Shown piece by piece: positions 14,131 through 63,506 of a DNA stretch of 64,000 nucleotides; position 1 is the first letter of the stretch; each line of letters opens with the position of its first letter. The notes beneath the pieces were generated by a model. The model had not been told where the DNA came from. It ran no database searches and worked only from the letters and a program-made list of their open reading frames with translations. Source of the DNA: a bacterium (GTDB lineage: Bacteria; Patescibacteriota; Saccharimonadia; CAILAD01; GCA-016700035); the NCBI GenBank assembly GCA_016700035.1, contig CP064998.1, positions 267,848 through 331,847 on the forward strand, given 5' to 3'. The position numbers and the translations under genes are program-made.

Positions 14131-14133
14131 AAT

Positions 14134-15309: not shown

Positions 15310-15362
15310 CTTGATATTTATATAGCTTCATAATTAATATCGGTTAGTTCGTACTAGTTTAA

Positions 15363-15450
15363 ACTTCTGGCTCTATGTGGTTAGAGCTATCGGTCTACTT
15401 ACTTTTGGTAGCTATCTAGTCCGTCAGTATGGTATTGGGTGGAAAATTAG
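15363..15450 (+). pseudogene. Remnant of the 3' end (TM anchor + basic tail) of an NHL-cassette gene
   Basis: ~85 % nt identity to 18068-18151 and 63426-63506. Translates to NFWLYVVRAIGLLTFGSYLVRQYGIGWKIRRN*, matching NFWLYVVGAISLLGAGSYLVRQYSRR* of the intact copies. There is no upstream ORF. Confidence 0.45.
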
Positions 15451-15589
15451 GCGTAACTAATAAAGCCTACATCAATATAGTTAACGTATATTAAAATATC
15501 ATGGCTATCAATAAATCATAGGCTTGCCATCTAAAATAATAGTAGTTATGATTAATGCAATAGTTAGAATAACTATATTTAATAAGCAT

Positions 15590-18151
15590 ATGCCAACAAA
15601 AACTCCCAGCCTAATCAATAATCAATCTAAGCTTAATTTGCGTTGGAATAGCCTATGGCTTATAACAGCTATATTCACAGTACTCTTGCTAGCGATTGGT
15701 TATTTTGCCGTACCGTATGTTCGGGCTGCTGGTGAAATTACGTATAATGGCTGTATTAATTGCCCGCCATCCAATGGTATAGCCGGGCCAACTGATACAG
15801 CCATTGATTCACAAGGTAATATATATGTATTAATGAGGGATGTAGAATTTGGAGGGGTTGCTAAGTTTAGTAGTGCAGGTACTTTATTGACGCGTTGGGG
15901 AGGGTATGGTTCGGATTTAGGTAATCTTGGATCCGGTCCATATGGGATCGCAGCCGATGCTAGCGATAATATTTATGTGGCAGATACCGGCAATAATCGT
16001 ATTCAAAAATTTGGTAGCAATGGGCAAAATCCATCATCATTTGGTGCGTATGGAACAGCAGAAGGGCAATTTAATGCTCCGAAAGATATAGTGGTGGATG
16101 GGTTAAGCATATATGTAGTAGATCAATTGAACCATCGTATCCAAAAATTTGATAATAACTGGAACTTTGTTATGACGTGGGGCTGGGGTGTAGACGATGG
16201 TTCGGCTGCATTTCAAATTTGTACATCGGGTTGTCAGGCTGGTGCTTCGAACTCAGGTGGCTTTAGCGCGCCAGATGCTATAACGGTGGATAGCAATCAT
16301 GATGTTTATGTTTATGATGATAGTAGAGTACAAAAATTTAGTAGTACAGGAACACTACTAAATAGTGTTGGTAGCTCTGGGTCGGGATCCGGTGAGTTTT
16401 CGGGTTCTTATGGTGGTGTTGACGTAGATTCTAGTGATAATTTATATGTTGTTGATGACGGTAATAGTAGGGTACAGAAATTTAATTCAGCCGGCGTGTT
16501 TCAAGAGTCTTTTGGTGGATATGGTAATAGTGCCAATGATGAATTTAGTAGCCCACAGGGAATAATGGTAGACACTGCAGATAATGTTTATGTTTCAGAT
16601 TCCGGTAATAGTCGAGTGCAGAAGTTTTCCAATGCTGTTTACCAACAGACATTTGGCACCAGTTTGCCTGGCTGGTCGCAGGGTCTCTTGGCAAGTGGTG
16701 CTGGCATTATGTTTGGTGGTAGATCAGATACAGATAGTCAGGGTAATTTATACATACCGGAGATCATGGGGAATCGGATTAGTAAATATAATAGTAGCGG
16801 TACGCGCATTGGTTTATGGGGAGGTTATGGTAGTGGACCTGGTGAGTTTAGCGAGCCTTCTTCAGTGGCGGTAGATACTAGCGATATGGTTTATGTTTCA
16901 GATACATCTAACAGACGCATTCAGAAATTTGATAGTTCCGGCAATCAACTACAAGAGTTTGGTGCATATGGATCTGGAGATCAGCAATTAGATACGGGGT
17001 ATGGTGGAGGTATAGCTCTGGATGGCGCTAATAATGTGTATGTAGCCGATACCGGCAATCATCGCATTCAACGATTCAACTCGGCTGGAGTTTCAGATTT
17101 GCGTTGGGGTAGTTATGGCATGGACGCAGGTGGGGAAATGAATAAACCAAATGCAGTAGCTATAGATAGTTCAGGCAATATTTATGTAGCAGATGGTGAG
17201 AACCCTCGCATTCAGAAGTTTTCATCTTCTGGTACGTTTATTATGATGTGGGGCTGGGGTGTTGATGATGGTTCGCAGGAGTTGCAAGTCTGTACGAGTG
17301 GCTGTCAGGCTGGACTACAGGGTAAGGGTACTGGGCAATTCTATAATTTATCTGACATCTCAATTGATTCGGCAGATAACGTTTATGTGTCGGATGGAAT
17401 GATAGGTGTTATGAAATTTGATACAAGTGGCAATTATATAGGCAAGTACTCTCAATCACTAACTGACACCCAGTTAGTCTATTCGCAGGGGCTTGCAATT
17501 GATAAGAAAACTCCCGGTCTCCTTCATGCCTCATCGTATTTTTGGGCAGTTAAACTCTGCGACACTGATGTCTCCACTAATAACTGCTCTGGCCCTAACG
17601 ATGGTGGCGGTAATACTGGTGGTGGAGAGGAATCTAGTACCTACTTCTACAACAACTCCTCCAATGACTCCATCACTTACCTAATAGCCCCAGACACTGC
17701 CACTAACTTCTCTCTGTCTGGCGTAGACTATGCTAGTTTACAAAAAGATGGATCCAATCTCTTCCCAGCTGGTCTCACAAGCTTTAACTTTGACACCACT
17801 CCTAACTCTGCTACAACCATTACCATCTACTACGATCTACCCGGTGCCCCAACAGGCTATACGGCTCGTAAATACAATCCAGCCAACCAAACCTATGCCG
17901 ATATTCCAGGAGCTATCATCGCCCGGGAAGATTACAGCGGTAAGAGTCGCCTCAAACTAACTTACTCCATCACAGACAATGGACCACTCGATCAAGATCC
18001 TACCCCAGGCCACGTAGTAGACCCAGTTGGTCTAGCTACTACCTCTACCTTCCTAGCTAGTACTGGCCTAAATTTCTGGCTCTATGTAGTTGGAGTCATC
18101 AGCCTACTTGGTGTTGGTGGCTATCTAGTCCGTCAATATAGTCGACGGTAG
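15590..18151 (+). CDS. Surface protein: N-terminal signal anchor, NHL-repeat beta-propeller(s), conserved C-terminal stalk domain, LAxTG-type cell-wall sorting signal
   Basis: Recurrent 'D.GNnRIQKF' NHL motifs. C-terminus '...DPVGLATTSTFLASTGLNFWLYVVGVISLLGVGGYLVRQYSRR'. Start set at the M aligned with the paralogue at 60918 (MPTKTPSLIN); the tracked ORF starts 66 nt earlier. Confidence 0.7.
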   Translation: MPTKTPSLINNQSKLNLRWNSLWLITAIFTVLLLAIGYFAVPYVRAAGEITYNGCINCPPSNGIAGPTDTAIDSQGNIYVLMRDVEFGGVAKFSSAGTLLTRWGGYGSDLGNLGSGPYGIAADASDNIYVADTGNNRIQKFGSNGQNPSSFGAYGTAEGQFNAPKDIVVDGLSIYVVDQLNHRIQKFDNNWNFVMTWGWGVDDGSAAFQICTSGCQAGASNSGGFSAPDAITVDSNHDVYVYDDSRVQKFSSTGTLLNSVGSSGSGSGEFSGSYGGVDVDSSDNLYVVDDGNSRVQKFNSAGVFQESFGGYGNSANDEFSSPQGIMVDTADNVYVSDSGNSRVQKFSNAVYQQTFGTSLPGWSQGLLASGAGIMFGGRSDTDSQGNLYIPEIMGNRISKYNSSGTRIGLWGGYGSGPGEFSEPSSVAVDTSDMVYVSDTSNRRIQKFDSSGNQLQEFGAYGSGDQQLDTGYGGGIALDGANNVYVADTGNHRIQRFNSAGVSDLRWGSYGMDAGGEMNKPNAVAIDSSGNIYVADGENPRIQKFSSSGTFIMMWGWGVDDGSQELQVCTSGCQAGLQGKGTGQFYNLSDISIDSADNVYVSDGMIGVMKFDTSGNYIGKYSQSLTDTQLVYSQGLAIDKKTPGLLHASSYFWAVKLCDTDVSTNNCSGPNDGGGNTGGGEESSTYFYNNSSNDSITYLIAPDTATNFSLSGVDYASLQKDGSNLFPAGLTSFNFDTTPNSATTITIYYDLPGAPTGYTARKYNPANQTYADIPGAIIAREDYSGKSRLKLTYSITDNGPLDQDPTPGHVVDPVGLATTSTFLASTGLNFWLYVVGVISLLGVGGYLVRQYSRR

Positions 18152-18390
18152 AAGGGGTGACTCAGAGCACTGTTGCTTAATAAGCAAACAACACTGTATT
18201 TGACGACCAATCTCTTGCATCTATAGCCCTAACCATAAGTACATTAATGTCTTGTATGAGAGAGTAGTTAGGTAGAGCATTAAATCAAGCACCCTCAAAA
18301 AACACCCAATCTACCCTCACACCCAATCTGGTTATGCTACAATACTAGAAAGAGTATAAGAGAAGAGTATTAAGAGGGTGTATAAAACAA

Positions 18391-21121
18391 GTGATATCAC
18401 GCAATAAATTACATACTGTTAGTTCTAAATTTAATAAAAAGCTACTACTAGCCCTTACATTATCAGTCCTATCTCTAGCAGTAGTCTGGACTACTGCCAT
18501 TCTAACCGAAACACATATTGCTCAAGCTGCCCCGGGTGATTGGCAATGGCAGAAGCGTAGTAATGGGATTGTGGGAGATGCCCTATATTCATTGTCCATA
18601 GCCAGCTCCACTGACGGCACTAAACTAGCTATGGCAAATTTGAACCCAGCAATAAATACTGGCTACATCTACACCTCCACCGACTCTGGTGCCAGTTGGA
18701 CCGAACAGAATAGCGCTGGCCAACGAACCTGGACATCCATCACCAGCTCAGCAGATGGCACTAAGCTAGCTGCTGTAGAAAATCATTGGGATGATAATCT
18801 AGGCCAAACAGTCGGCTCCATCTACACCTCCACCGACTCTGGCGTTAGCTGGAATGAACAAACCGCGGCTGGCTCCAGAGACTGGCAATTCATCACCAGC
18901 TCGGCTGATGGCACTAAGCTAGCCGCTGTAGTAAATGATGAGGATAATGGCGGTGGCTACATCTACACCTCCACCGATTCCGGTGCCACCTGGACCGAAC
19001 GCACTAGCGCTGGCCAACGAGAATGGCAATCCATAACCAGTTCAGCTGATGGCACTAAGCTAGCCGCTGTAGAAAACCATTGGGATAATAACTTAGGTCA
19101 ACAAGTTGGCTACATCTACACCTCCACCGATTCCGGTGCCACCTGGACCGAACGCACTAGCGCTGGCCAACGAGAATGGCAATCCATAACCAGTTCAGCT
19201 GATGGCACTAAGCTAGCCGCTGTAGAAAACCATTGGGATAATAACTTAGGTCAACAAGTTGGCTACATCTACACCTCCACCGACTCTGGTGCCAGTTGGA
19301 CCGAACAGAATAGCGCTGGCCAACGAACCTGGACATCCATCACCAGCTCAGCAGATGGCACTAAGCTAGCTGCTGTAGAAAATCATTGGGATGATAATCT
19401 AGGCCAAACAGTCGGCTCCATCTACACCTCCACCGACTCTGGTGCCAGTTGGACCGAACAGAATAGCGCTGGCCAACGAACCTGGACATCCATCACCAGC
19501 TCAGCAGATGGCACTAAGCTAGCTGCTGTGGCTGCCATGGATTCTGTCTATACTTCAACAAATTCCGGCGTTAGCTGGACTGAGCAAACCGTAATGGGTA
19601 GTAGAATGTGGTATTCGGTTGCTTCAGATAGTAGTGGTACTAAGCTAGCAGCTGCATCAATCTACGGCTACATCTACACCTCCACCGACTCAGGTGCCAC
19701 CTGGACCGAGCAAACTAGCTCTGGCCAACGAACCTGGGCATCCATAATCAGCTCGGCCGATGGCACTAAGCTAGCGGCTGTAGATGGTCTAGATAATAAC
19801 GGCTACATCTACACCTCCACTGACTCTGGCGCCAGCTGGACAGAACAAACTAGTGCTGGTCAACGAAACTGGAACTCCATAACCAGCTCGGCTGATGGCA
19901 CTAAGCTAGCCGCTGTAGATAATGATAACGGTAATGGCGGCTACATCTACACATCCACCGACTCTGGCGTTAGCTGGAATGAACAAACCGCGGCTGGCTC
20001 CAGAGACTGGCAATCCATCACCAGCTCGGCTGATGGCACTAAGCTCGCAGCTGTAGATAATAATAACGGCTACATCTACACCTCCACCGACTCTGGCGCC
20101 AGCTGGACCGAGCAAACTAGCTCTGGCCAACGAACCTGGGCATCCATAATCAGCTCGGCTGATGGCACTAAGCTAGCAGCTGTAGCTGGTGGCTTTGGTG
20201 ATGACGGCTACATCTACACCTCCACCGACTCTGGCGCCAGCTGGACAGAACAAACTAGCGCTGGTCAACGAGGCTGGTACTCTATAGCCAGCTCGGGTGA
20301 TGGCACTAAGCTAGCCGCTGTAGATAGTAATAACGGCTACATCTACACCTCCACCGATTCTGGCGCAAGCTGGACTGAGCAAACTAGTGCTGGTAGTAGG
20401 CTGTGGATTTCGGTTGCTAGCTCTAGCGCTGGAGATAAGCTAGTAGCATTAGCTCATTTTGGCAACATCTACACCGGCACCATAGAACAAAGAAGTAGTT
20501 GACCCACCAGAACCTCCAACTCCTCCAACCTCCAACACCTCCAACCTCACCACTCCCTCTAGCCCTATCTCAGCCTTCTCTCTCCGCCCAGTCTCTATCT
20601 CTACTCCCACAGGTACTAACATAACCTCTAGCTCTACAGTCCCAGAATCTAGCCTAGTAACTCAAGACCCTAACAACCAATACCCACTAGGTCTAGTAAA
20701 CTTTAGCTTTACTACTAACCAAAGCTCTAACCAAGTAGTCCTAACCTTCATAACTAATCTAACCCCAAACCAAGTAACACCTAAAAAGTATAACCCCAGT
20801 ACTAATACCTACACTAACTTACCAACTTCTGCTAATGCTGTAGTGAGTGAAACTACCATCGATGGTAAACATGCTCTAACCCTAACCTATACCATCATAG
20901 ACAATGGTGAACTAGACCTAGACCCTACAGCTGGTACTATCTCTGACCCAGTTGGTCTAGCGGTATCTAACTCTACCTATGACCAATTAGCAAGTACGGG
21001 GGAGAATACTCAACCAATACTACTAACGGCTGTGTTACTGCTAGTGAGTGGCATGATTATGATTGCTGGAGTTTTATGGGCATTTAGCAGAAGGAAGATA
21101 CATATCCAAGGGGGAAGGTAA
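18391..21121 (+). pseudogene. BNR/Asp-box repeat beta-propeller surface protein, frame disrupted by a 1-nt insertion near 20486-20494 (or a sequencing error)
   Basis: ORF 18391-20502 (703 aa, ~14 'IYTSTDSGxSWTEQ' Asp-box blades) stops at TGA. The downstream frame (20493-21121) encodes the stalk + LASTG + TM + RRK module that is contiguous in the intact paralogue 53848-56481. The paralogue reads 'atagaaggcgaagta' where this copy reads 'atagaacaaagaagta' (+1 nt). Confidence 0.55.
18661..19442 (+). repeat. Perfect intragenic direct repeats inside the BNR gene
   Basis: 182-nt identical copies at 18661-18842 and 19261-19442. Perfect tandem duplication of a 153-nt (51-aa blade) unit at 18955-19107 and 19108-19260. 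Read directly from the sequence. Confidence 0.85.
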
Positions 21122-21126: not shown

Positions 21127-23178
21127 GTGAGAAATTCAAGACTTATTAAATTAACTGCACTAACTAGACTAGCTAGCCTTACAAAAAACACTAACTACTT
21201 ATTACTATCCGTACTAATAACCCTAACTTCACTACTGCCCATACTACTACCAGCTACAGCAACAGCTGCACCATCCACTCCACCAGACTCTTGTTTTAGT
21301 TTTAATAGTGGCACTCAAACAATAGAGGATTATTATGATTACGAAGCCAACAACAATTCTAACCCTGCTTGCACCAGAGAAGTGATTATACCCAGCGCGA
21401 TTGGCGGCAATCTCGTTACTACTATTGGTTACGAGGCATTCTCTCAAAACCAACTCACCAGCGTCACCATCCCAAACTCCGTAACCTCTATTAGTGGCGA
21501 AGCTTTTAGTAGTAATCAACTCACCAGCATAACTATCCCTAACTCAGTCACTACTATTGGTTATTCTGCTTTCGCTGACAACCAACTCACCAGTGTTGTA
21601 ATACCTAACTCCGTGACTTCTATTGGTTCCGGTACCTTCCGCGACAACCAACTCACCAGTGTCACGATTGAGGGTAGTATTACAACAGCAGGGGGTAATG
21701 AATTTAGTAGTAACCCTATCCAAACCTTCACTTACGGCCTAGATACCTATACATCTTCAGACCCCCTAACAGAAGATTGTTTTGCCTTTGATGGCAGTAA
21801 TATAATAACTGGCTTTAACAAAGCAGATATAGCTACAATTAGAGACCACAGTAATGCTTGCTTAAACCCTAATGTAAATATACCTAGTACAATAGGCGGT
21901 AATTCTGTGACTACTATTGGTAACGAGGTTTTTATGTTAAGTCAAATCTCCAATGTCAATATACCAAATTCTGTTACAAGCATAGGTTTTGCAGCATTTG
22001 TCGGAAATAGACTCACCAGTGTTACTTTTCCTAACACGCTTTCTACTATTGGTGGATATGCTTTTAATCATAACCAAATTACTGAGGTAACTATTCCAGA
22101 CTCAGTTACTACATTAGGCTTACTTGCATTTGATCTTCAAACTAAACCAGGCGGAACAAGCTTGATGGATCTGCAAATGAGTGGACTTGACCCTCAAGTC
22201 ACTCAAGCCTTTATTGACAGCGTAATCTACACCAACATCTATGCCAGCCCTAGCCAAGTAACAGCTCTAAGTCTAGCTGATTCAGAATTGACCGAAGCAG
22301 ATATTATGAGCGAAGATATCAACGCCGACGGCGACCAAACAGACATAATCTCTGGCCAACTCATCAACCCAAGTAGAGTAACCGCCACCTACAAAGACAC
22401 AAACGGTAATACTATTGCCCCCAGCACTACAGCTACCGGCACAGGTTTGTCTTCCTACCTAGCAGTAGATAACCCAACCAATGATCTAGGCCTGTACTAC
22501 CGAGCTGGTGGTAGCTACACTGTACCAACCGCCCCTACCATTGCTGGCTACACTATCCAAACTACTCCAAGTAACATAGCTAGCCTATCTGCTGGAGACA
22601 ATCAAATCAACTATATCTATACAGCTAACAGCAACAATGAAGACAACACACTTTCCACACCTCTCTCCAACAACACCACCAGCTACCTAGTCTTGCCAGA
22701 TGATGTAACTAACCCTAGCTTTACTACTACACCAACTAACACTATCCCTAGTGACACAGCCTATTCCTTCCCAACTAGTCTAGTATCCTTTCAATTTGAT
22801 ACCACACCTGGATCAACTAAAGCTATAACCCTATACTTTGATCTTCCTGGTAACCCATCAGACTACACAGCCAGAAAGTATGACACCAATAACCATAGCT
22901 TTAGTACTATAACCTCAGCCACCATAACCAGAGAAACCTATAACAACAAATCTCTACTAAAACTAACCTACAACATCACCGATGGAGGTCTACTAGACCA
23001 AGACCACACAATCAACGGAACCATCATAGATCCAGTAGGTTTAGCTACTAACACAGTTGGTGCACCACAGACTGGAGTGGAGCGCTGGGGGAGTGGTTGG
23101 GTTGAGGATGCACTGGATGGAATTGTGGCATTTGGTATTGGTCTATGGAAACAGAGGACTGCTTTAGGTTGGTTTTGA
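21127..23178 (+). CDS. Surface protein with BspA-type leucine-rich repeats and C-terminal stalk domain
   Basis: Signal peptide (…LLPATATAAPSTPPDSCF). ~22-aa repeats 'NQLTSVTIPNSVTSIG..AF'. Stalk domain 'YTARKYD...LKLTYNITDGGLLDQD...IDPVGLA' then 'APQTG'. GTG start 5 nt after the BNR gene stop. Confidence 0.65.
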   Translation: MRNSRLIKLTALTRLASLTKNTNYLLLSVLITLTSLLPILLPATATAAPSTPPDSCFSFNSGTQTIEDYYDYEANNNSNPACTREVIIPSAIGGNLVTTIGYEAFSQNQLTSVTIPNSVTSISGEAFSSNQLTSITIPNSVTTIGYSAFADNQLTSVVIPNSVTSIGSGTFRDNQLTSVTIEGSITTAGGNEFSSNPIQTFTYGLDTYTSSDPLTEDCFAFDGSNIITGFNKADIATIRDHSNACLNPNVNIPSTIGGNSVTTIGNEVFMLSQISNVNIPNSVTSIGFAAFVGNRLTSVTFPNTLSTIGGYAFNHNQITEVTIPDSVTTLGLLAFDLQTKPGGTSLMDLQMSGLDPQVTQAFIDSVIYTNIYASPSQVTALSLADSELTEADIMSEDINADGDQTDIISGQLINPSRVTATYKDTNGNTIAPSTTATGTGLSSYLAVDNPTNDLGLYYRAGGSYTVPTAPTIAGYTIQTTPSNIASLSAGDNQINYIYTANSNNEDNTLSTPLSNNTTSYLVLPDDVTNPSFTTTPTNTIPSDTAYSFPTSLVSFQFDTTPGSTKAITLYFDLPGNPSDYTARKYDTNNHSFSTITSATITRETYNNKSLLKLTYNITDGGLLDQDHTINGTIIDPVGLATNTVGAPQTGVERWGSGWVEDALDGIVAFGIGLWKQRTALGWF

Positions 23179-43641: not shown

Positions 43642-44829
43642 ATGAAAATTTCGGCTAAGCTCCGTTATGCTGTGCTGGCAACTGCTCTTATTGCAGTTCC
43701 GGCCGTAGCTGGTGCTACTAGTCAGGTTGCCTTAGAGGGTCGTACTGCAGTTGCTAACCAAACTGCTGGTGCTACCACCTATACAAAATCGACTAGTGCT
43801 AAAACCGATGAAGTGGTAAAAGTACAGATTTGGTACCACAACAAAGAAGAAGCCAACTCTGGTAAAGTAGCAAACAATCTTAAAGTAAAAATCGATCTCC
43901 CAACTCAAACTGGCAAAAGCCAAGTTGTTAAGGGAACCATAAGTGCTGATAACGCTAATACCGTTACCGACACTGCAAACGTCAACCTCGCTCTGGATCA
44001 GAGCCGTCTGGAATATATTCCAGGTTCCGCTCAGTGGCGCCACAACAAGGGTACCAACGAGCAGCCCAACTGGGTAACTGAATCTATCAGTGACCAAGTT
44101 GTTGGAACTGGAATTGTTCTTGAGAACGCAAAGCCTTGCTTCAACTACGAAGCCAATGTTACAGTACTTGCTCGGGTTAAAACTCCTGCAGTTTCGATCA
44201 CTAAACAAGTTCGTGTACTTGGTGAAAAAGAGTGGAAGACTGAAAACACCGCCAAAGCTGGTGACACACTTGAGTACTTGATTTCCTACAAAAACGAAGG
44301 CAATACAACTCTCAAGAACGTTATCATTGCTGATAACATGCCAGCTAACGTTACCTACGTACCAGGTACTACGATGATTAAAAATGCATCAAATCCAACT
44401 GGTACAAAAGTAAACTCTGACAATATCACCAAAGGTGGTATTAATGTCGGAAATTACACCCCAGGTAGCAATGGTTTTGTATGGTTCCAGGCTAAGATTG
44501 ATTCAAATCTAAAACCAGGTAACTATACCTTCAAGAACGTTGGTATTGTGAAGCCAGAAGGTATGGGTGAATACTTCAATGCAGCAAAAACTACGGTTGT
44601 TGTTGCACCGAAGCCAACTACCCCACCTACTACTCCACCTACGCCAATTACTCCAAAGCCTACAACTCCAGTAACTCCGGTAACCCCTGAGCAGCCTAGC
44701 TTGCCTCAGACTGGTATCGAAACTGGCGTAGCAGGTCTGTTGGGAACGGGTGGTCTCACCTATGCTGGTTATTTCTACCGAAAGAGCCGTAAAGGTTTGA
44801 GTACTGCGCTTAAAAACGTTGTAAAGTAA
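43642..44829 (+). CDS. Cell-wall-anchored protein with a DUF11-like repeat domain and an LPQTG sortase signal
   Basis: Signal peptide. 'GDTLEYLISYKNEGNTTLKNVIIADNMPANVTYVPGT' is a DUF11-type motif. PT-rich linker, then 'LPQTG', a TM helix and 'YRKSRKG'. Confidence 0.65.
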   Translation: MKISAKLRYAVLATALIAVPAVAGATSQVALEGRTAVANQTAGATTYTKSTSAKTDEVVKVQIWYHNKEEANSGKVANNLKVKIDLPTQTGKSQVVKGTISADNANTVTDTANVNLALDQSRLEYIPGSAQWRHNKGTNEQPNWVTESISDQVVGTGIVLENAKPCFNYEANVTVLARVKTPAVSITKQVRVLGEKEWKTENTAKAGDTLEYLISYKNEGNTTLKNVIIADNMPANVTYVPGTTMIKNASNPTGTKVNSDNITKGGINVGNYTPGSNGFVWFQAKIDSNLKPGNYTFKNVGIVKPEGMGEYFNAAKTTVVVAPKPTTPPTTPPTPITPKPTTPVTPVTPEQPSLPQTGIETGVAGLLGTGGLTYAGYFYRKSRKGLSTALKNVVK

Positions 44830-53814: not shown

Positions 53815-53847
53815 TAAAGTATTCTAATGAGGGAGCTATACTTTTTA

Positions 53848-56481
53848 ATGAACCAACTAATAGCAAAGTTAATACATCAGCCATCAACCAATCTCAAAAC
53901 TAATCTATCTACAACTACCCAGTCCATCAAAACTAACAAACTATCTCTAGCCTTCCGTCTAACTCTAGGCCTAGTCTTATTCTCTGCTGTACTAATAGGC
54001 ATCAACCACCAATCCAAAGCATTAGCAGAAGTAAACAACAACTACACCTGGACCCAACGCAAGAATGGGTTTGTTGGCGATCAAATGAGCTGGTCCTCTA
54101 TCACCAGCTCCGCCGACGGCACCAAACTAGCTGCTGTAGCTAGGAACGGCTCCATCTACACCTCGGCTGATTCTGGCACCACCTGGACTGAACAAACGGC
54201 GGCTGGCTCCAGAGACTGGCTCTCCATCACCAGCTCGGCTGATGGCACTAAACTAGTTGCTGTAGTAAGCGGTGGCTCCATCTACACCTCCACCGACTCC
54301 GGCACCACCTGGACAGAGCAAACGGCGGCTGGATCCAGATACTGGATCTCCATCGCCAGCTCCGCTGACGGCACCAAACTAGCTGCAGTAGATAATGACG
54401 GTGGCTCCATCTACACCTCGGCTGATTCTGGCGCTACCTGGAGTGAACAAACAGCGGCTGGATCCAGATACTGGACATCCATCGCCAGCTCCGCTGATGG
54501 CACTAAGCTAGCCGCTGTAGCAAATGGCGGCAGCATCTACACCTCGGCTGATTCTGGCACCACCTGGACAGAGCAAACGGCGGCTGGATCCAGATACTGG
54601 ATCTCCATCGCCAGCTCCGCTGACGGCACCAAACTAGCTGCAGTAGCAAATGGTGGCTCCATCTACACCTCGGCTGATTCTGGCACCACCTGGACAGAGC
54701 AAACGGCGGCTGGATCCAGATACTGGTACTCCATCACCAGCTCCGCCGACGGCACTAAGCTAGCTGCTGCAACATACGGCGGCTCCATCTACACCTCCAC
54801 TGATTCTGGCGCTACCTGGAGTGAACAAACGGCGGCTGGCTCCAGAAGCTGGTACTCCATCACCAGCTCCGCCGACGGCACTAAACTAGCTGCTGTAGCT
54901 AGGAACGGCTCCATCTACACCTCTACTGACTCTGGTGCCACCTGGACAGAGCAAACGGCGGCTGGATCCAGATACTGGATCTCCATCGCCAGCTCCGCTG
55001 ACGGCACTAAACTAGCAGCCGTAGCATATAACGGCTACATCTACACCTCCACCGACTCTGGCGTTACCTGGACAGAACAAACCGCGGCTGGCTCCAGAAA
55101 CTGGTACTCCATCACCAGCTCCGCCGACGGCACCAAACTAGCTGCAGTAGATAATGACGGTGGCTCCATCTACACCTCGGCTGATTCTGGCGCTACCTGG
55201 AGTGAACAAACAGCGGCCGGTTCCAGAGACTGGTCCTCCATCACCAGCTCCGCCGACGGCACTAAGCTAGCTGCTGCAACATACGGCGGCTCCATCTACA
55301 CCTCCACTGATTCTGGCGCTACCTGGAGTGAACAAACGGCGGCTGGCTCCAGAAACTGGCGCTCCATCACCAGCTCGGCTGATGGCACTAAACTAGTTGC
55401 TGTAGTAAGCGGTGGCTCCATCTACACCTCCACCGACTCCGGCACCACCTGGACCGAACAAACTAGCGCTGGCTCCAGAAGCTGGCAATCCATCACCAGT
55501 TCCGCCGACGGCACCAAACTAGCTGCTGTAGTAAATGATGGCTCCATCTACACCTCGGCTGATTCTGGCGTAACTTGGTTATTGGTAAGTTTAGCTCCAG
55601 ATATTTACCCGCTTACTGCTACATATGCCAGTTCTAATAGCCAGCTATTTATTGGAGGAGCCAAGATAATAGATATGGATAATATGATATTTGAAAATGC
55701 CCTCTACACTTCAAATGACAACGGTCAGACTCTTACCGATATATCTATGCCAAACTCTTCAAAGTATTGGATCTCCATCACCAGCTCCGCTGACGGCACC
55801 AAACTAGCTGCTGTAGTAAGTGGCGGCTCCATCTACACCGGCAGCATAGAAGGCGAAGTAGTAGATCCACCAACTCCACCACCAAGCTCCAACACCGCTC
55901 AACTCACCACCCCCACTAGCCCTCTCTCTACCTTCTCTCTAAAACCAGTATCTCTAACCACCCCCACTGGCACTACCATTAACTCTAGCTCTACTGTCCC
56001 AGAATCTTCCCTAGTAACCCAAGACAACAACAACCAATACCCACTAGGCCTAGTAAACTTTAGCTTTACCACTAACCAAAGCTCTAACCAAGTAGTATTA
56101 AACTTTGAAACAGACTTAAAACCAAACCAAGTAACACCCAGAAAGTATAATCCTAACTCTAAGACCTATACCAACTTACCTACTAACGCTAATGTATCTA
56201 TAACCGAAACCACTATAAATAATAAACACTATCTAGTTCTAACCTATACCATCATAGACAATGGTGAACTAGACCTCGATCCAGCAGCTGGTACTATCTC
56301 TGACCTAGTCGGACTAGCCGTATCTAACTCTACCTATGACCAACTAGCGAGTACTGGGGAGAATACTCAACCAATACTACTAGCTACGGTACTATTTCTA
56401 GTAAGTGGCATAATTATAGTTGCTGGAGTTCTAGGGGTATTTAGTAGAAGGAAGATGCATATCCAAGTGGGAAGGCAATAA
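53848..56481 (+). CDS. BNR/Asp-box repeat beta-propeller surface protein with stalk domain and LASTG sorting signal (intact paralogue)
   Basis: ~14 blades 'SIYTS(A/T)DSG(A/T)TW(S/T)EQTAAGSR.W.SI(T/A)SSADGTKLAAV'. PT-rich linker and stalk '…LTYTIIDNGELDLDP…'. Ends 'LASTGENTQPILL' + TM + 'SRRK'. Start is set at the M conserved with 63646. Confidence 0.65.
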   Translation: MNQLIAKLIHQPSTNLKTNLSTTTQSIKTNKLSLAFRLTLGLVLFSAVLIGINHQSKALAEVNNNYTWTQRKNGFVGDQMSWSSITSSADGTKLAAVARNGSIYTSADSGTTWTEQTAAGSRDWLSITSSADGTKLVAVVSGGSIYTSTDSGTTWTEQTAAGSRYWISIASSADGTKLAAVDNDGGSIYTSADSGATWSEQTAAGSRYWTSIASSADGTKLAAVANGGSIYTSADSGTTWTEQTAAGSRYWISIASSADGTKLAAVANGGSIYTSADSGTTWTEQTAAGSRYWYSITSSADGTKLAAATYGGSIYTSTDSGATWSEQTAAGSRSWYSITSSADGTKLAAVARNGSIYTSTDSGATWTEQTAAGSRYWISIASSADGTKLAAVAYNGYIYTSTDSGVTWTEQTAAGSRNWYSITSSADGTKLAAVDNDGGSIYTSADSGATWSEQTAAGSRDWSSITSSADGTKLAAATYGGSIYTSTDSGATWSEQTAAGSRNWRSITSSADGTKLVAVVSGGSIYTSTDSGTTWTEQTSAGSRSWQSITSSADGTKLAAVVNDGSIYTSADSGVTWLLVSLAPDIYPLTATYASSNSQLFIGGAKIIDMDNMIFENALYTSNDNGQTLTDISMPNSSKYWISITSSADGTKLAAVVSGGSIYTGSIEGEVVDPPTPPPSSNTAQLTTPTSPLSTFSLKPVSLTTPTGTTINSSSTVPESSLVTQDNNNQYPLGLVNFSFTTNQSSNQVVLNFETDLKPNQVTPRKYNPNSKTYTNLPTNANVSITETTINNKHYLVLTYTIIDNGELDLDPAAGTISDLVGLAVSNSTYDQLASTGENTQPILLATVLFLVSGIIIVAGVLGVFSRRKMHIQVGRQ

Positions 56482-56483: not shown

Positions 56484-58052
56484 GTGAGTAATCTAAGACT
56501 GACTAAATTAACTACACTAAATAGACTAACAAGTTTATTTAAGAGAACTAACTACCTAGCCCTTAGCCTAATAATAAGCCTAACCTCAATTCTACCCATA
56601 CTACTACCAGCCTCGGCAAATGCTGCTCCATCCACCCCACCAGATTCTTGCTTTAACTTTGATTCAGGTACAGGCACTATTACCGATTATTATGACTATG
56701 AGGGCAACAACAACTCTAACCCCGCCTGCACCAGAGAACCCATTATACCCGGCACGATTGGTGGCAATGTAGTAACTGTAATTGGTAGCTCTGCCTTCTC
56801 TAGCAAACAACTCACCAGCGTTACAATTGGTAACTCTGTAACTTCTATTGATGAAGGTGCCTTCGCTGGCAACCAACTCACCAGCGTCATCATTGGTAAC
56901 TCTGTAGCTTCTATTGGTGGCTCTGCTTTTAATGCCAATATGCTTGAAACTGTAACTTTATCTAGTAATTTGTCGGGTCTTACGAGTGGTACAATTTTTA
57001 CCAATAATAAGATCCAAGAAATGCAAATACCTGATTCAATAACACTTATTGATACTTATACTTTTTTTGCACAGTCGCCAATAGGTGCAGGCTCTTATTA
57101 TGCTTTTATGAATAATGATTACTCTGCTCTAAACCAATACATGGCGACTAGTTGGTATGCTCGGTTGTTTACTAGCCCGGGGAATCCTAATAATCTTACA
57201 GATTCTTATGCTGTGGAGAGTGTCTTTGGTATGGATATGAACTCTGATGGTGATATGAACGACTCAATTGGTGGCCACCTCATCAACCCAAGTAGAGTAA
57301 CCACCAACTACAAAGACACAAATGGCAACACCATTGCCCCCAGCACCACAGCTACTGGCACAGGTTTATCTTCCTACCTAGCAGTAGACAACCCAACTAA
57401 TAACCTAAGCTTGTACTACAAAGCTGGTAATAGCTACACCGTACCACCAGCCCCATTTATACCTGGCTACACCATCCAAACCACACCAAGTAACATAGCT
57501 AGCCTAACAGCTGGTAATAACTCTATAGACTATATCTATACAGCTAACAGTAACAATGAAGACAACACACTCTCCACCCCACTCTCCAACAGCACCACTA
57601 GCTACCTAGTCCTACCAGATGATGTAACTAACCCTAGCTTTACTACTACACCAACTAACACTATCCCCAGTGATACAGCCTACTCCTTCCCAACTAGCCT
57701 AGTATCCTTTCAATTCGACACCACACCTGGATCAACTAAAGCTATAACTCTGTACTTTGATCTTCCCGGTAACCCATCAGACTACACAGCCAGAAAGTAC
57801 GACACCAATAACCATAGCTTTAGTACCATAGCCTCGGCAACCATAACTAGAGAAACCTATAACAACAAATCTCTACTAAAACTAACCTACAACATCACAG
57901 ACGGAGACAACCTAGATCAAGACCACACAGTCAACGGAACAATCATAGACCCAGTAGGTTTAGCTACTAACACAGTTGGTGCACCACAGACTGGAGTGGG
58001 GCGATGGGAGAGTAGTTGGGTTGCTACAATTCTTAGCTTCTTTGGGCTATAG
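56484..58052 (+). CDS. BspA-type leucine-rich-repeat surface protein (shorter paralogue of 21127-23178)
   Basis: Signal peptide, LRR_5-like repeats, and a stalk domain nearly identical at nt level to 22330-23100. Ends '…GAPQTGVGRWESSWVATILSFFGL*'. Confidence 0.6.
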   Translation: MSNLRLTKLTTLNRLTSLFKRTNYLALSLIISLTSILPILLPASANAAPSTPPDSCFNFDSGTGTITDYYDYEGNNNSNPACTREPIIPGTIGGNVVTVIGSSAFSSKQLTSVTIGNSVTSIDEGAFAGNQLTSVIIGNSVASIGGSAFNANMLETVTLSSNLSGLTSGTIFTNNKIQEMQIPDSITLIDTYTFFAQSPIGAGSYYAFMNNDYSALNQYMATSWYARLFTSPGNPNNLTDSYAVESVFGMDMNSDGDMNDSIGGHLINPSRVTTNYKDTNGNTIAPSTTATGTGLSSYLAVDNPTNNLSLYYKAGNSYTVPPAPFIPGYTIQTTPSNIASLTAGNNSIDYIYTANSNNEDNTLSTPLSNSTTSYLVLPDDVTNPSFTTTPTNTIPSDTAYSFPTSLVSFQFDTTPGSTKAITLYFDLPGNPSDYTARKYDTNNHSFSTIASATITRETYNNKSLLKLTYNITDGDNLDQDHTVNGTIIDPVGLATNTVGAPQTGVGRWESSWVATILSFFGL

Positions 58053-60917: not shown

Positions 60918-63506
60918 ATGCCAACAAAAACTCCCAGTCTAATCAATAGTAGATCCAACATCAGTTTACGCTGGAACAATCTATGGCTACTAGTGGCTGT
61001 ATTTGTGGTGCTCTCATTGGCAGTTGGTTATTTTGCTCTACCATATGTACGGGCTGCTGGTGAAATTAACCAAATAGGGTGTATTAACTGTCCGCCAGAT
61101 GGGGCATTTGGCTTACGAGATGCTGGCGATGTAGCTATCGACACGAGTGGTAATGTATATGTTACGCGCAATGATAATACGAGCCATATAGTTAAGCTTG
61201 ACTCTGCCGGTAATATGGTTAGTTCATTCGGGCCATACGGAACTGGTAACGCTGAGTTTGAGGGGGTTCGGGGAATTGCAGTTGATAGCTCCAATAGTAT
61301 TTATGTGATAGAGGGTACATATAATAAGGTTAAAAAGTTTAATTCAGACGGTACATTTGTTTTAGAGTGGGACGGTAGTGCAGGTGCTGGCGGTCAACTC
61401 AGTAATCCTGCCGATCTCGCGGTGGACTCCAGTGGTAATATCCTTGTGGTAGATACCAATAATAATCGTATTCAAAAGTTTAACAGCTCAGGCGTGTATC
61501 AATCAGATTTTGGCAGTAATGGTACTGGTGATGGGCAGTTTAGTTATCCTTCCGATCTCACGGTGGACTCCAGTGGTAATATTTATGTTGCAGATACCGA
61601 CAATCATCGTATTCAAAAGTTTAACAGCTCAGGCGTGTATCAGTCACAGTTTGGCAGTAATGGTACTGGTGATGGGCAGTTTAGTTATCCACGCGGGATT
61701 ACAATAGATAGTGCAGATAATATTTATGTTGCAGACACCTCTAATAATCGCATTCAAAAGTTTAATAGCTCTCATGTATTCCAGACGGAATGGGGTAGTA
61801 GCGCAAGTTCTTATGGTGCTGAACCGGGAGAGATGAGCGGGCCTAAAGGTATAGCACACGATAGTAGTAATAATATATATATCGCCGATCAATATAACAA
61901 TCGCGTACAGAAATTTACTTCAACTGGTAGCCTAATTACCCAATATGGAACTACAGGATTAAGCTCATACGGTGGCTATGAAGACTCTTATGGTAATGGT
62001 GGGTCTGGTAATAATGTGCGTTTCAATACACCCGCTGGAACAGCAGTAGATCATGATGGTAATACCTATGTGAGTGATGCAGATAATAGTAGGATTATGA
62101 AGTTTAATAGCGCTGGTAATTTTGTTAGCCAGATTGCTAGTAGCTCAGTGGGCTCATATGGCGAGCCATCCAATGGTTCGAATAATGGAGAGTTTGAGTA
62201 TCCTATGGGTATGGTGACCGATGCTAGCAATAACCTTTATGTTGCAGATGTTGGCAATAACCGCATCCAGAAATTTAACAGCTCAGGAGCTCATCAACTT
62301 AGCTTTGGTGGCAACGGACCATATGGAGGTGGTAGTGGGGATGGTCAACTTATGATGCCATTCGACGTTGCCTTGGATGGGACGGGCAATATATATGTTG
62401 CCGATATGTCCAATGACCGTTTGCAGAAGTTTGATTCGAGTGGGAACTATCTTGCTAAGACTACTAGTGCTGTGTCTTCACTGGGTGGAGTGGTGTCGGC
62501 TGAAAGTTTTGGTGATGTTCAGATGCTTGGCGGTGTTGATGCTAGTGAAGCTGGAGGGCCGGTATCTGTGGCGGTTGGACCAGATGGAAATGTTTGGGCG
62601 CTGACGTATGGTAAGCTACTTAAATACAGCGCCAATCTAGAGCCAATTCAAAATTGGGATATTTCAGATGGCTTTACGTATATGAGCATCGGAGTTAGGG
62701 TGGATAAGGATAATAATGTTTATATTGGGCAATTTAATGACAGTGGCCCTGGTGGTCGGTTACTAAAATTTGATTCAAGCGGCAATCAGGTGGGCGTATG
62801 GGATGATGGGTATCGTATGGATGAATTTATGCCTATGCTCCCAGCAATCGATCCGGAGATTGATGGACGCTTGGCGGTGCCTAGTGTGATGCAGAATAAA
62901 GTTGTCTTCCTCTGCGACACCGATGTCTCCACCAATAACTGCTCTGGCCCTAACGATGGTGGTGGCAACTCTGGTGGTGGAGAGGAATCTAGTACCTACT
63001 TCTACAACAACTCATCCAATGATTCCATCACTTATCTAATAGCCCCAGACACTGCTACTAACTTCTCTCTGTCTGGTGTAGACTACGCTAGTTTACAAAA
63101 AGATGGATCTAATCTCTTCCCAGCTGGTCTCACAAGCTTTAACTTTGACGCCACCCCTAACTCTGCTACCACCATTACTATCTACTACGATCTACCCGGT
63201 GCTCCAACAGGCTACACAGCTCGTAAATACAATACCGCCAATCAAACCTATGCCGATATTCCAGGAGCTACCATTACCCGAGAAGACTACAGCGGTAAGA
63301 GTCGTCTAAAGCTAACTTACTCCATCACAGACAATGGACCACTCGATCAAGATCCTACTCCAGGCCACGTAGTAGACCCAGTTGGTCTAGCTACTACCTC
63401 TGCCTTTCTAGCTAGTACTGGTCTAAACTTCTGGCTCTATGTAGTTGGAGCCATCAGCCTACTTGGTGCTGGTAGCTATCTAGTCCGTCAGTACAGTCGG
63501 CGGTAG
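60918..63506 (+). CDS. NHL-repeat surface protein with stalk domain and LASTG sorting signal (paralogue of 15590-18151)
   Basis: 'NNRIQKFNSSG' NHL motifs. C-terminal 590 nt are about 93 % identical (by eye) to 17575-18151. Ends 'LASTGLNFWLYVVGAISLLGAGSYLVRQYSRR'. Confidence 0.7.
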   Translation: MPTKTPSLINSRSNISLRWNNLWLLVAVFVVLSLAVGYFALPYVRAAGEINQIGCINCPPDGAFGLRDAGDVAIDTSGNVYVTRNDNTSHIVKLDSAGNMVSSFGPYGTGNAEFEGVRGIAVDSSNSIYVIEGTYNKVKKFNSDGTFVLEWDGSAGAGGQLSNPADLAVDSSGNILVVDTNNNRIQKFNSSGVYQSDFGSNGTGDGQFSYPSDLTVDSSGNIYVADTDNHRIQKFNSSGVYQSQFGSNGTGDGQFSYPRGITIDSADNIYVADTSNNRIQKFNSSHVFQTEWGSSASSYGAEPGEMSGPKGIAHDSSNNIYIADQYNNRVQKFTSTGSLITQYGTTGLSSYGGYEDSYGNGGSGNNVRFNTPAGTAVDHDGNTYVSDADNSRIMKFNSAGNFVSQIASSSVGSYGEPSNGSNNGEFEYPMGMVTDASNNLYVADVGNNRIQKFNSSGAHQLSFGGNGPYGGGSGDGQLMMPFDVALDGTGNIYVADMSNDRLQKFDSSGNYLAKTTSAVSSLGGVVSAESFGDVQMLGGVDASEAGGPVSVAVGPDGNVWALTYGKLLKYSANLEPIQNWDISDGFTYMSIGVRVDKDNNVYIGQFNDSGPGGRLLKFDSSGNQVGVWDDGYRMDEFMPMLPAIDPEIDGRLAVPSVMQNKVVFLCDTDVSTNNCSGPNDGGGNSGGGEESSTYFYNNSSNDSITYLIAPDTATNFSLSGVDYASLQKDGSNLFPAGLTSFNFDATPNSATTITIYYDLPGAPTGYTARKYNTANQTYADIPGATITREDYSGKSRLKLTYSITDNGPLDQDPTPGHVVDPVGLATTSAFLASTGLNFWLYVVGAISLLGAGSYLVRQYSRR

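What the first reader, a model, noticed from the sequence alone, without database searches (positions are those of the whole stretch)
17575..18151. Shared C-terminal 'stalk + LAxTG' sorting module on three unrelated surface-protein architectures
NHL proteins (15590-18151, 60918-63506), BNR proteins (18391-21121, 53848-56481) and LRR proteins (21127-23178, 56484-58052) all end with a ~100-aa domain. Its consensus is roughly SFxFDTTPxS…ITxYxDLPGxPxxYTARKY(N/D)…LKLTYxITDNGxLDQDxTxGxIxDPVGLA. In the NHL and BNR copies it is followed by LASTG, then a ~20-aa hydrophobic helix, then an RR/RRK tail. The motif + TM + basic tail organisation is the canonical Gram-positive cell-wall sorting signal, and LAxTG is the motif class recognised by class E sortases. 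The neighbouring DUF11 protein (43642-44829) instead uses LPQTG. Two motif classes imply two sortase specificities, and no sortase gene lies in this window. The stalk domain itself matches no family I can name.
Basis: partly seen in the sequence, partly recalled or inferred. Interest (0 to 1): 0.65.

Follow-up and report, generated by a model that had tools for sequence, protein, structure and literature searches.

The report
Sortase-anchored surface proteins sharing one pedestal
Six neighbouring surface-protein genes of a Saccharibacteria-like bacterium share a C-terminal module: a catalogued 'choice-of-anchor U' domain followed by a sortase-type cell-wall sorting signal, which is an ordinary way for such bacteria to display varied adhesin-like proteins.

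Summary
NHL, BNR and LRR proteins in two copies of a three-gene cassette end in the same roughly 95-125 aa beta-sandwich. In the NHL and BNR copies it is followed by LASTG, a roughly 21-aa hydrophobic helix and an RR/RRK tail.

The 'stalk' is not unassigned. It is NCBIfam NF041766, the choice-of-anchor U domain (36.6-57.6 bits, cutoff 32). An exhaustive search found 1,448 cluster representatives, almost always with the domain just before a C-terminal sorting signal.

The window is part of a 916-kb GenBank contig (NHL2 = QQS27240.1). Its nearest relatives are all Candidatus Saccharibacteria.

No sortase lies in the window, and I could not reach the rest of the genome. In 10 of 36 non-redundant related loci a sortase gene sits within about 5 kb of such a gene, and directly beside it in seven. 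LAxTG substrates pair mainly with a Saccharibacteria-specific 'TLYSC' sortase family that is not class E by NCBIfam. [A/V/S]PxTG substrates pair with class-F-like sortases.

The 'two specificities' idea is therefore supported by comparison. The 'class E' label is not.

The LRR copies carry GAPQTG with non-canonical tails. One BNR copy is frameshifted.

Verdict: a new member of a known kind, of modest interest.

The parts
15590..18151 (+). NHL1: signal peptide or anchor, NHL beta-propeller, linker, choice-of-anchor U domain, LASTG sorting signal
   Evidence: ORF and translation. PF01436 NHL 181 bits. NF041766 45.8 bits at aa 725-816.
17675..18040 (+). NHL1 pedestal: nine-strand beta-sandwich. 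The NF041766 core is 17762-18037.
   Evidence: AlphaFold2 model mc2c62b17d1d5: pLDDT about 90 over residues 30-130 of the last 165 aa, with strands starting at residue 8. Coordinates.
18053..18148 (+). NHL1 sorting signal: LASTG (18053-18067), hydrophobic helix LNFWLYVVGVISLLGVGGYLV, basic tail RQYSRR
   Evidence: Helix 141-163 in the model. TIGR01167 14.7 bits against a cutoff of 15.9.
17555..18153 (+). 3' module block, 93% identical in DNA to 62910-63508 (NHL2). The rest of the two genes is unalignable as DNA.
   Evidence: blastn. In the last 199 codons, 32 differ synonymously and 9 non-synonymously. Overall amino-acid identity is 49%.
60918..63506 (+). NHL2, identical to GenBank QQS27240.1: NHL propeller, choice-of-anchor U (63117-63392), LASTG (63408-63422), TM segment, RQYSRR
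18391..20502 (+). BNR1 N-terminal part (signal peptide and BNR/Asp-box propeller), ended by a frameshift
20486..21121 (+). BNR1 C-terminal part in the +1 frame: S/T/P-rich linker, choice-of-anchor U (20681-20962), LASTG (20987-21001), TM segment, SRRK tail
   Evidence: It is 78% identical to the BNR2 C-terminus. NF041766 26.8 bits for the 92-aa ATG/GTG-delimited ORF.
53827..56481 (+). BNR2 (intact): BNR propeller, S/T/P linker, choice-of-anchor U (56038-56319), LASTG (56344-56358), TM segment, SRRKMHIQVGRQ
   Evidence: NF041766 36.6 bits; TIGR01167 16.5 bits.
21127..23178 (+). LRR1: BspA-type LRR, MucBP, choice-of-anchor U (22768-23046), GAPQTG (23062-23076), then the atypical tail VERWGSGWVEDALDGIVAFGIGLWKQRTALGWF
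   Evidence: (57.6 bits). No TIGR01167 hit.
56484..58052 (+). LRR2: LRR, MucBP, choice-of-anchor U (57687-57965), GAPQTG (57981-57995), then an 18-aa tail VGRWESSWVATILSFFGL with no basic end
   Evidence: (56.4 bits). DNA homology to LRR1 ends at 58023/23104, inside the tail.
43642..44829 (+). DUF11-repeat protein with a canonical LPQTG (44701-44715), TM segment and RKSRK sorting signal. It has no choice-of-anchor U domain.
   Evidence: TIGR01451 and TIGR01167; 21.6 bits.
15345..15429 (+). Orphan relic of an NHL-type sorting-signal coding sequence in the frr-NHL1 spacer. It reads ...RTSLNFWLYVVRAIGLLTFGSYLVRQY...
   Evidence: 85% identity to 63409-63493. Translation.

Best explanation
These are Sec-exported, sortase-anchored surface proteins of a Saccharibacteria-type (CPR/Patescibacteria) bacterium.

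Architecture of each protein:
- an N-terminal signal peptide;
- a variable passenger domain (NHL propeller, BNR propeller, or BspA-type LRR plus MucBP);
- a low-complexity linker;
- a conserved beta-sandwich 'pedestal', the choice-of-anchor U domain (NCBIfam NF041766);
- 5-13 residues later, a tripartite cell-wall sorting signal.

Proposed mechanism, inferred by analogy with characterised sortases:
1. The hydrophobic helix and basic tail hold the exported protein in the membrane.
2. A membrane-bound sortase, encoded outside this window, cleaves between T and G of LASTG.
3. The sortase transfers the protein to a peptidoglycan precursor.
4. The folded pedestal ends up at the wall and the passenger projects outward.

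The pedestal is a reusable adaptor that travels with the signal. The 3' module is kept nearly identical between paralogs whose passengers have diverged or been exchanged.

In this lineage LAxTG is most likely read by a Saccharibacteria-specific sortase family with a TLYSC active-site motif, not by an actinobacterial class E enzyme. [A/V/S]PxTG and LPxTG signals are probably read by a second, class-F-like sortase.

The LRR copies (GAPQTG plus short or aberrant tails) may be released or only weakly retained.
For: Shown:
- The stalk is NF041766 above cutoff in five proteins.
- The family is large: 1,448 representatives at E <= 1e-3 and 831 at E <= 1e-10. The domain almost always ends 10-60 aa before the C-terminus.
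- Of 163 relatives, 74 have LAxTG + TM + basic, about 15 have L[S/G/T]xTG variants, and 32 have xPxTG + TM + basic.
- TIGR01167 is at or above cutoff for the BNR2 and DUF11 tails, and just below for NHL1.
- The model shows a confident beta-sandwich followed by a C-terminal helix.
- All genome relatives are Candidatus Saccharibacteria. NCBI already names one relative 'choice-of-anchor U domain-containing protein [Ca. Saccharimonadales]'.
- Twelve ORFs with PF04203 above its gathering score lie in 11 of the 37 related loci (375 kb in total). L023 duplicates L006, so this is 10 of 36 non-redundant loci. In seven loci the sortase abuts or overlaps the substrate gene; in the others it is 1.3-5 kb away.
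- Motif and sortase type pair up. TLYSC sortases sit next to LADTG/LANTG/LPNTG genes (L006, L008, L024, L027). A TIYTC sortase sits next to a LANTG gene (L020). Class-F-like NL[M/I]TC sortases sit next to APDTGYG/PPDTGFG/APNTGFG genes (L030, L033, L040).
- Both sortase families are abundant, with 1,493 and 798 homologs at E <= 1e-10.

Literature:
- Sortases and predicted sorted proteins occur in a TM7 genome (PMC3812714).
- More than half of CPR genomes encode a sortase family (PMC6744442).
- 'Choice-of-anchor' denotes domains found next to alternative C-terminal anchors (10.1101/2023.03.06.531300).

Inferred:
- signal peptides, read by eye from the sequences;
- cleavage at T-G and attachment to peptidoglycan.
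Against: - No sortase gene is in the 64-kb window, and I could not inspect the rest of the 916-kb contig. None of the top 120 hits for either sortase family lies on a contig of that length.
- The NHL tails fall just below the TIGR01167 cutoff (14.7 vs 15.9).
- The pairing of motif class and sortase family rests on a handful of loci and has one exception. In L012 a class-F-like sortase follows a LAETG gene.
- The LRR tails lack a canonical hydrophobic segment and basic tail.
- No biochemical evidence exists for any Saccharibacteria sortase substrate.
- The role of the pedestal is inferred only from its position and conservation.
Confidence: 0.75

Rival explanations
1. The LAxTG proteins are substrates of a bona fide class E sortase of the actinobacterial type. 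Such an enzyme might have been acquired from the actinobacterial hosts of Saccharibacteria.
For: LAXTG is the signal class attributed to class E enzymes (PMC5148588). One close homolog of the LAxTG-adjacent sortases, P0268 (64% identity), is named 'class E sortase [bacterium]' by NCBI. A. oris SrtA (5utt) is among the best solved matches.
Against: The LAxTG-adjacent sortases of relatives score 34-63 bits on NF033747, whose cutoff is 160. That is equal to or below their class C and D scores. Their best PDB matches are class D and C enzymes, at the same weak level (27-30 bits) as the class E enzyme, and SrtE1 (5cuw) is not matched by the profile. The Tyr of the class E 'GHY' motif aligns with Arg ('WHR[F/Y]'). 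The active-site motif is TLYSC, not TLxTC.
Confidence: 0.12
2. The C-terminal helix is simply a permanent membrane tail anchor. LASTG is a conserved juxtamembrane sequence that no sortase cleaves.
For: No sortase is in the window. The NHL tail is marginally below the TIGR01167 cutoff.
Against: The x-x-x-T-G motif is conserved at a fixed distance before the helix in about 120 of 163 relatives, while the flanking residues vary. Sortase genes lie within about 5 kb in 10 of 36 non-redundant loci, and directly beside the substrate gene in seven. A basic tail is present, as in canonical signals.
Confidence: 0.08
3. The pedestal is a GAIN/ZU5-like autoproteolytic juxtamembrane domain. It would release the passenger by self-cleavage, for example at the conserved Asp-Pro of the last strand.
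Confidence: 0.04

Closest known systems
Choice-of-anchor U domain-containing proteins (NCBIfam NF041766)
   Same: All five intact proteins match the model above its curated cutoff. The domain has the family's defining position, directly N-terminal to a C-terminal sorting signal.
   Different: Nothing essential differs. In this lineage the following signal is nearly always sortase-type (LAxTG or xPxTG), and no PEP-CTERM or T9SS tail appeared among the top 150 relatives. The fold extends about 30 aa upstream of the 92-position model. Pfam has no model for it.
LAXTG substrates of actinobacterial class E sortases, e.g. Streptomyces chaplins with SrtE1/SrtE2 (PMC5148588)
   Same: The pentapeptide class is the same (Ala at P3), and so is the tripartite signal architecture.
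   Different: The sortases that sit next to LAxTG genes in relatives are not class E by HMM score or by the hallmark Tyr. The organism is a CPR bacterium, not an actinobacterium. The substrates are large propeller or LRR proteins with a folded pedestal.
Canonical LPXTG cell-wall anchored adhesins of Firmicutes (TIGR01167 / PF00746)
   Same: Signal peptide, passenger, wall-proximal region, motif, TM segment, basic tail. The window's DUF11 protein is a textbook case with LPQTG.
   Different: P3 is Ala in four of the genes. The wall-proximal region is a folded beta-sandwich rather than a Pro/Gly/Ser/Thr-rich spacer.
GAIN subdomain B and ZU5/FIIND beta-sandwiches
   Different: There is no sequence similarity and no autoproteolytic motif. 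The similarity is at the level of general beta-sandwich topology.

Membership tests
Choice-of-anchor U domain (NCBIfam NF041766) | HMM score at or above the curated cutoff of 32 bits | tested here: met
   NHL1 45.8, NHL2 45.3, BNR2 36.6, LRR1 57.6 and LRR2 56.4 bits. The 92-aa BNR1 fragment covers only profile positions 57-92 and scores 26.8.
Choice-of-anchor U domain (NCBIfam NF041766) | Located immediately N-terminal to a C-terminal protein-sorting signal, on otherwise unrelated proteins | tested here: met
   The domain ends 5-13 aa before LASTG or GAPQTG in all six genes. The arrangement is the same in about 140 of 163 relatives. Meaning of the name.
Sortase (LPXTG-type) cell-wall sorting signal | Pentapeptide x-x-x-T-G followed by a hydrophobic segment of about 20 aa and a positively charged C-terminal tail | tested here: met
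   Met by NHL1, NHL2, BNR1 (C-terminal frame), BNR2 and the DUF11 protein. Not met by LRR1 and LRR2.
Sortase (LPXTG-type) cell-wall sorting signal | TIGR01167 LPXTG_anchor score at or above 15.9 bits | tested here: inconclusive
   BNR2 16.5 and DUF11 21.6 (met). NHL1 14.7, just below the cutoff. The LRR tails give no hit. The model is trained mainly on LPXTG.
Sortase (LPXTG-type) cell-wall sorting signal | N-terminal Sec signal peptide | tested here: inconclusive
   Basic n-regions, hydrophobic cores and AxA-like sites (VRA-AG, AQA-AP, SKA-LA, ATA-AP, ANA-AP) are visible in the translations. No signal-peptide predictor was available.
Sortase (LPXTG-type) cell-wall sorting signal | A sortase (PF04203) encoded in the same genome | not testable with these tools
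   None is in the window. Relatives have sortase genes within about 5 kb of such genes in 10 of 36 non-redundant loci.
Sortase (LPXTG-type) cell-wall sorting signal | Cleavage between T and G and amide linkage to peptidoglycan | not testable with these tools
   Requires proteomics or biochemistry.
Class E sortase system (LAXTG) | Ala at P3 of the sorting motif | tested here: met
   LASTG occurs four times in the window. LAxTG occurs in 74 of 163 relatives.
Class E sortase system (LAXTG) | Cognate sortase belongs to class E (NF033747 at or above 160 bits; conserved Tyr in the beta3/beta4 loop) | tested here: not met
   Tested on the LAxTG-adjacent sortases of relatives, not on this genome's own enzyme. 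NF033747 gives 34-63 bits, no better than class C or D. The 'GHY' Tyr of the class E enzyme 5utt aligns with Arg in 'WHR[F/Y]'. One homolog carries the NCBI name 'class E sortase', so the naming is not unanimous.
GAIN / ZU5-FIIND autoproteolytic domains | Conserved cleavage motif (H-L|T/S, or S-F|S) between the last two strands | tested here: not met
   No such conserved residues appear in the 27-sequence alignment. The fold match is weak, with Z no higher than 7.4.

The most novel reading that the evidence does not exclude
Saccharibacteria run two lineage-specific sortase circuits on one shared pedestal domain.

1. A CPR-specific 'TLYSC' sortase family evolved LAxTG specificity independently of actinobacterial class E enzymes.
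2. A class-F-like sortase reads [A/V/S]PxTG signals. These include a previously undescribed variant without a transmembrane segment, in which the motif is followed only by about 10 residues with the consensus L-x-x-[Y/H/F]-W-L-L-x-[L/V]-K, or by 1-2 residues. This variant is typical of LRR-type passengers such as the window's LRR genes.

Such short-tailed proteins might be ligated to another protein or released, rather than wall-anchored.
Probability: 0.3. Interest if true: 0.55.

Novelty: new member of a known kind. Interest (0 to 1): 0.3.

Why it matters
Saccharibacteria live attached to host bacteria, and their surface proteins are the obvious candidates for host recognition. Very little is known about how those proteins are displayed.

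This locus shows that propeller and LRR adhesin-like proteins are built on one interchangeable 'pedestal plus sortase signal' cassette, and that the cassette is homogenised between paralogs.

The comparative data suggest which sortase family reads which motif. That gives a concrete list of enzyme-substrate pairs to test in cultivable strains.

It does not reveal a new kind of system. Both the domain and the type of signal are already catalogued.

Tried and rejected
1. **First sortase motif scan.** The regular expression was wrong and could not match T-L-x-T-C, so those negatives are void. The corrected scan and the Pfam scans replace them.

2. **Rescue of the LRR tails by another frame.** No alternative frame after GAPQTG encodes a TM segment plus basic tail. 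The same holds after the early stops in L012, L013 and L016.

3. **Locating this genome's sortase.**
   - Exact-product look-ups for NHL1, NHL2, LRR1 and the BNR1 fragment were not on record.
   - The frr and GT-PMT look-ups gave only contigs of at most 7.7 kb, which break in the repeated genes.
   - The genome is not among the GTDB representatives, where the best stalk identity was 60%.
   - Two sortase profile searches listed no hit on a 916,044-bp contig.

5. **CPBP/Rce1-like protease at 24330-25079 as an alternative sorting enzyme.** Rejected. The CPBP-linked signals described so far have an invariant Cys. These tails have none, and the gene sits in an RseP/MreBCD context.

6. **Autoproteolytic reading of the pedestal.** No nucleophile motif is present.

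7. **PEP-CTERM or T9SS tails.** None appeared among the top 150 relatives.

8. **High-GC island ORF 42197-43348.** No match in the phage or plasmid collections.
Full report
**What is in the sequence.**

The window (46.6% G+C) carries two copies of a three-gene cassette.
- Copy 1: NHL1 (15590-18151), BNR1 (18391-21121) and LRR1 (21127-23178).
- Copy 2: BNR2 (53827-56481), LRR2 (56484-58052), an inserted GT2-PMT glycosyltransferase gene (58161-60833), then NHL2 (60918-63506).
- A third LRR gene starts at 63646 and runs off the end of the window.

Pfam confirms the passenger domains: NHL repeats, BNR/Sortilin-type propellers, and BspA-type LRR_5 plus MucBP.

All six genes end in the same module (alignments A1 and A2). 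Similarity between architectures is far beyond chance. BLASTP on the last 165 aa gives E = 5e-24 for NHL1 vs BNR2, 7e-41 for NHL1 vs LRR1, and 2e-16 for BNR2 vs LRR1.

In NHL1, NHL2 and BNR2 the domain is followed after 5-13 residues by LASTG, a hydrophobic stretch of about 21-24 residues and a basic tail (RQYSRR, or SRRKMHIQVGRQ).

- BNR1 is interrupted by a +1 frameshift near 20486-20502. Its stalk and signal lie in a second frame.
- The LRR genes do have a motif, GAPQTG. What follows is not a canonical hydrophobic segment plus basic tail.

**What the 'stalk' is.**

It is a catalogued family: NCBIfam NF041766, the choice-of-anchor U domain. The five intact proteins score 36.6-57.6 bits against a curated cutoff of 32. 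Pfam has no model for it, which is probably why it looked unassigned.

'Choice-of-anchor' is the label used for domains of surface proteins that occur next to alternative C-terminal anchors (10.1101/2023.03.06.531300).

An exhaustive HMM search with the six stalks found 1,448 cluster representatives at E <= 1e-3 and 831 at E <= 1e-10. The domain almost always ends 10-60 residues before the C-terminus.

An AlphaFold2 model of the last 165 residues of NHL1 gives a confident nine-strand beta-sandwich (pLDDT about 90 for residues 30-130), followed by a disordered LASTG region and a C-terminal helix.

**Whose genome.**

NHL2 is 100% identical to GenBank QQS27240.1, 'SMP-30/gluconolactonase/LRE family protein [bacterium]', on a contig of 916,044 bp.

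All 17 related loci from reference genomes are Candidatus Saccharibacteria or Patescibacteria, with stalk identity up to 60%. NCBI already names one relative 'choice-of-anchor U domain-containing protein [Candidatus Saccharimonadales bacterium]'.

The organism is therefore very probably a member of the Saccharibacteria. This is an inference from nearest relatives, because no marker-gene phylogeny was run.

**Is the tail a sortase signal?**

The architecture is canonical.
- TIGR01167 reaches its cutoff of 15.9 bits for BNR2 (16.5) and for the DUF11 protein with LPQTG (21.6). NHL1 just misses it at 14.7. The LRR tails do not hit at all.
- Among 163 relatives, 74 carry LAxTG + TM + basic and about 15 carry L[S/G/T]xTG variants.
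- Another 32 carry [A/V/S/T]PxTG + spacer + TM + basic, and about 22 have the motif followed by 16 residues or fewer.

No ORF in the window has a sortase domain (Pfam; corrected motif scan). My first motif scan was faulty and should be ignored.

I could not read the rest of the genome. Exact-product look-ups reach only short metagenome contigs that break in these repeated genes. Neither sortase profile search listed a hit on a 916,044-bp contig.

**Comparative evidence for the sortase link.**

The 37 related loci total 375 kb. Eleven of them contain 12 ORFs with PF04203 above its gathering score. L023 duplicates L006, so this is 10 of 36 non-redundant loci. In seven loci the sortase abuts or overlaps the substrate gene; in the others it lies 1.3-5 kb away. 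They fall into three groups.

- **Group I.** Found in L006/L023, L008, L024 and L027. The proteins are 63-71% identical to each other, with active site ...LSAHRF...KLTLYSC...DGR. They lie next to LADTG, LANTG or LPNTG genes.
- **A single 'TIYTC' sortase.** In L020 it overlaps the end of a LANTG gene.
- **Group II.** Found in L030, L033, L040, L037 (two copies) and L012, with active site NL[M/I]TC. These score 96-116 bits on the class F model NF033748, whose cutoff is 166.
  - In L030, L033 and L040 they lie next to PPDTGFG, APNTGFG or APDTGYG genes.
  - In L037 and L012 they lie near the short-tailed GAPNTGLGALGRR* and GVPETGIR* genes.
  - There is one exception: in L012 the sortase directly follows a LAETG gene.

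Both families are large, with 1,493 and 798 homologs at E <= 1e-10.

It does not support the class E label.
- The LAxTG-adjacent sortases (group I and L020) score only 34-63 bits on the class E model, whose cutoff is 160, and no better than on the class C and D models.
- The nearest solved structures to group I are class D, C and E enzymes, all at 27-30 bits.
- The Tyr of the class E 'GHY' motif aligns with Arg in 'WHR[F/Y]' (rationale in PMC5148588).

The same paper reports that SrtE1 accepts either Ala or Pro at P3. Two motifs alone would therefore not have proved two enzymes.

Published genomics already places sortases and predicted sorted proteins in TM7, and a sortase family in more than half of CPR genomes (PMC3812714; PMC6744442).

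**How the module behaves in evolution.**

NHL1 and NHL2 are 49% identical overall. Their last 599 bp are 93% identical in DNA, and of the last 199 codons 32 differ synonymously and 9 non-synonymously. The first roughly 190 bp, which encode the signal peptide, are also alignable (76% identity). The propeller-coding parts are not.

An 85-bp relic of the same sorting-signal sequence lies orphaned between frr and NHL1, at 15345-15429. The DNA homology between LRR1 and LRR2 ends inside the tail, nine codons after TG, which explains their different endings.

Together these indicate recombination or gene conversion that keeps the 'pedestal plus signal' cassette uniform while the passengers diverge or are exchanged.

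**Most likely mechanism.**

1. Sec export.
2. Retention in the membrane by the C-terminal helix and basic tail.
3. Cleavage at T|G by a membrane sortase encoded elsewhere in the genome.
4. Transfer to a peptidoglycan precursor.

The folded choice-of-anchor U pedestal then sits at the wall and presents the propeller or LRR passenger.

Steps shown here:
- domain identity and fold;
- signal architecture;
- family-wide conservation;
- sortase neighbourhood in relatives.

Steps inferred:
- signal-peptide cleavage;
- the actual sortase of this genome;
- T-G cleavage and wall linkage;
- any role of the pedestal beyond spacing.

The LRR proteins, with GAPQTG and aberrant tails, belong to a recurrent short-tail class and may be released or handled differently.

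**Verdict.**

It remains untested on one point, whether this genome has a sortase.

This is a new member of a known kind. The only potentially new elements are the Saccharibacteria-specific sortase-motif pairing and the short-tail signal without a transmembrane segment. Both were seen in relatives rather than in the flagged interval.

Noticed in passing
window 20486-20502 (BNR1): A +1 frameshift splits BNR1 into 18391-20502 and 20486-21121. 'ata gaa caaa gaa gta' stands where BNR2 has 'ata gaa ggc gaa gta'. This is either a pseudogene or a homopolymer error in a long-read assembly.
   Followed up: partly
window 15345-15429: An orphan 85-bp relic of an NHL-type sorting-signal coding sequence lies in the frr-NHL1 spacer. 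It is 85% identical to 63409-63493. This is a trace of past recombination or deletion among the paralogs.
   Followed up: partly
window 63646-64000: A third LRR gene begins here and runs off the window. Its N-terminal leader (MNQLIAKLIHQPTTKLKTNLST...) resembles the N-terminus of BNR2 rather than those of LRR1 and LRR2, so the leaders also appear to be shuffled.
   Followed up: no
window 23077-23175 and 57996-58049; P0023, P0024, P0025, P0031, P0044, P0059, P0066, P0069, P0081, P0105, P0131; L016 1-1857: A recurrent sorting-signal variant without a transmembrane segment: [S/A/T][P/A][N/D]TG followed by about 10 residues with the consensus L-x-x-[Y/H/F]-W-L-L-x-[L/V]-K, then a stop. It is frequent on LRR passengers. 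No NCBIfam model covers it. The window's LRR tails start similarly (V-G/E-R-W) and then diverge.
   Followed up: partly
L012 7427-8443, L013 9566-10393, L037 1087-3687; P0030, P0032, P0035, P0067, P0107, P0140: Choice-of-anchor U proteins that stop 1-8 residues after the motif (GVPETGIR*, GVPDTGL*, GAPNTGLGALGRR*). No TM segment is encoded downstream in any frame in L012 and L013. L012 and L037 have class-F-like sortases within 5 kb.
   Followed up: partly
L007 2054-3406, L011 2090-4222, L012 300-1679; P0051, P0153: Another tail class: motif, TM segment and basic residues, followed by a conserved cytoplasmic extension of about 45 aa (...YRKHKKPL..DP..Y[T/S]xxHHx[K/R]VVx[I/L]Px(2)KYR...). Its function is unknown. 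In L012 the gene is followed directly by a class-F-like sortase.
   Followed up: no
window 58161-60833: A fused GT2 (polyprenol-phosphate sugar synthase-like) and PMT_2/YkcB_C glycosyltransferase sits inside cassette 2. The BNR and LRR proteins have S/T/P-rich linkers, so O-glycosylation of these surface proteins is plausible. An LCP-family gene lies at 3877-5253.
   Followed up: no
window about 40000-43400: A high-GC island (57-63% against a background of about 45%) lies just upstream of the LPQTG DUF11 gene. Its Ala/Pro/Arg-rich ORFs (39607-41097, 41243-42073, 42197-43348) have no Pfam match. The last ORF has no match in the phage or plasmid collections. The island looks like foreign, actinobacteria-like DNA.
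   Followed up: partly
L001 7070-7659 (ENA ERZ27275291 k141_49851): This metagenome contig is collinear with window 10471-18144 at 96.4% identity. Its last 590 bp are 100% identical to the NHL2 3' module (62910-63499), not to the NHL1 module. This is either gene conversion in that strain or an assembly jump in the repeat.
   Followed up: partly
window 23244-25079: An RseP-type M50 protease and a CPBP (Rce1-like) intramembrane protease lie immediately downstream of cassette 1, followed by mreB, mreC, an unassigned ORF and PBP2. The CPBP enzyme is probably unrelated to sorting, because the tails contain no Cys.
   Followed up: partly
window 49630-53615: An FtsE/FtsX pair is followed by two paralogous proteins with a C-terminal CHAP domain (51347-52462, 52488-53615). 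This is a PcsB-like cell-separation arrangement directly upstream of cassette 2.
   Followed up: no
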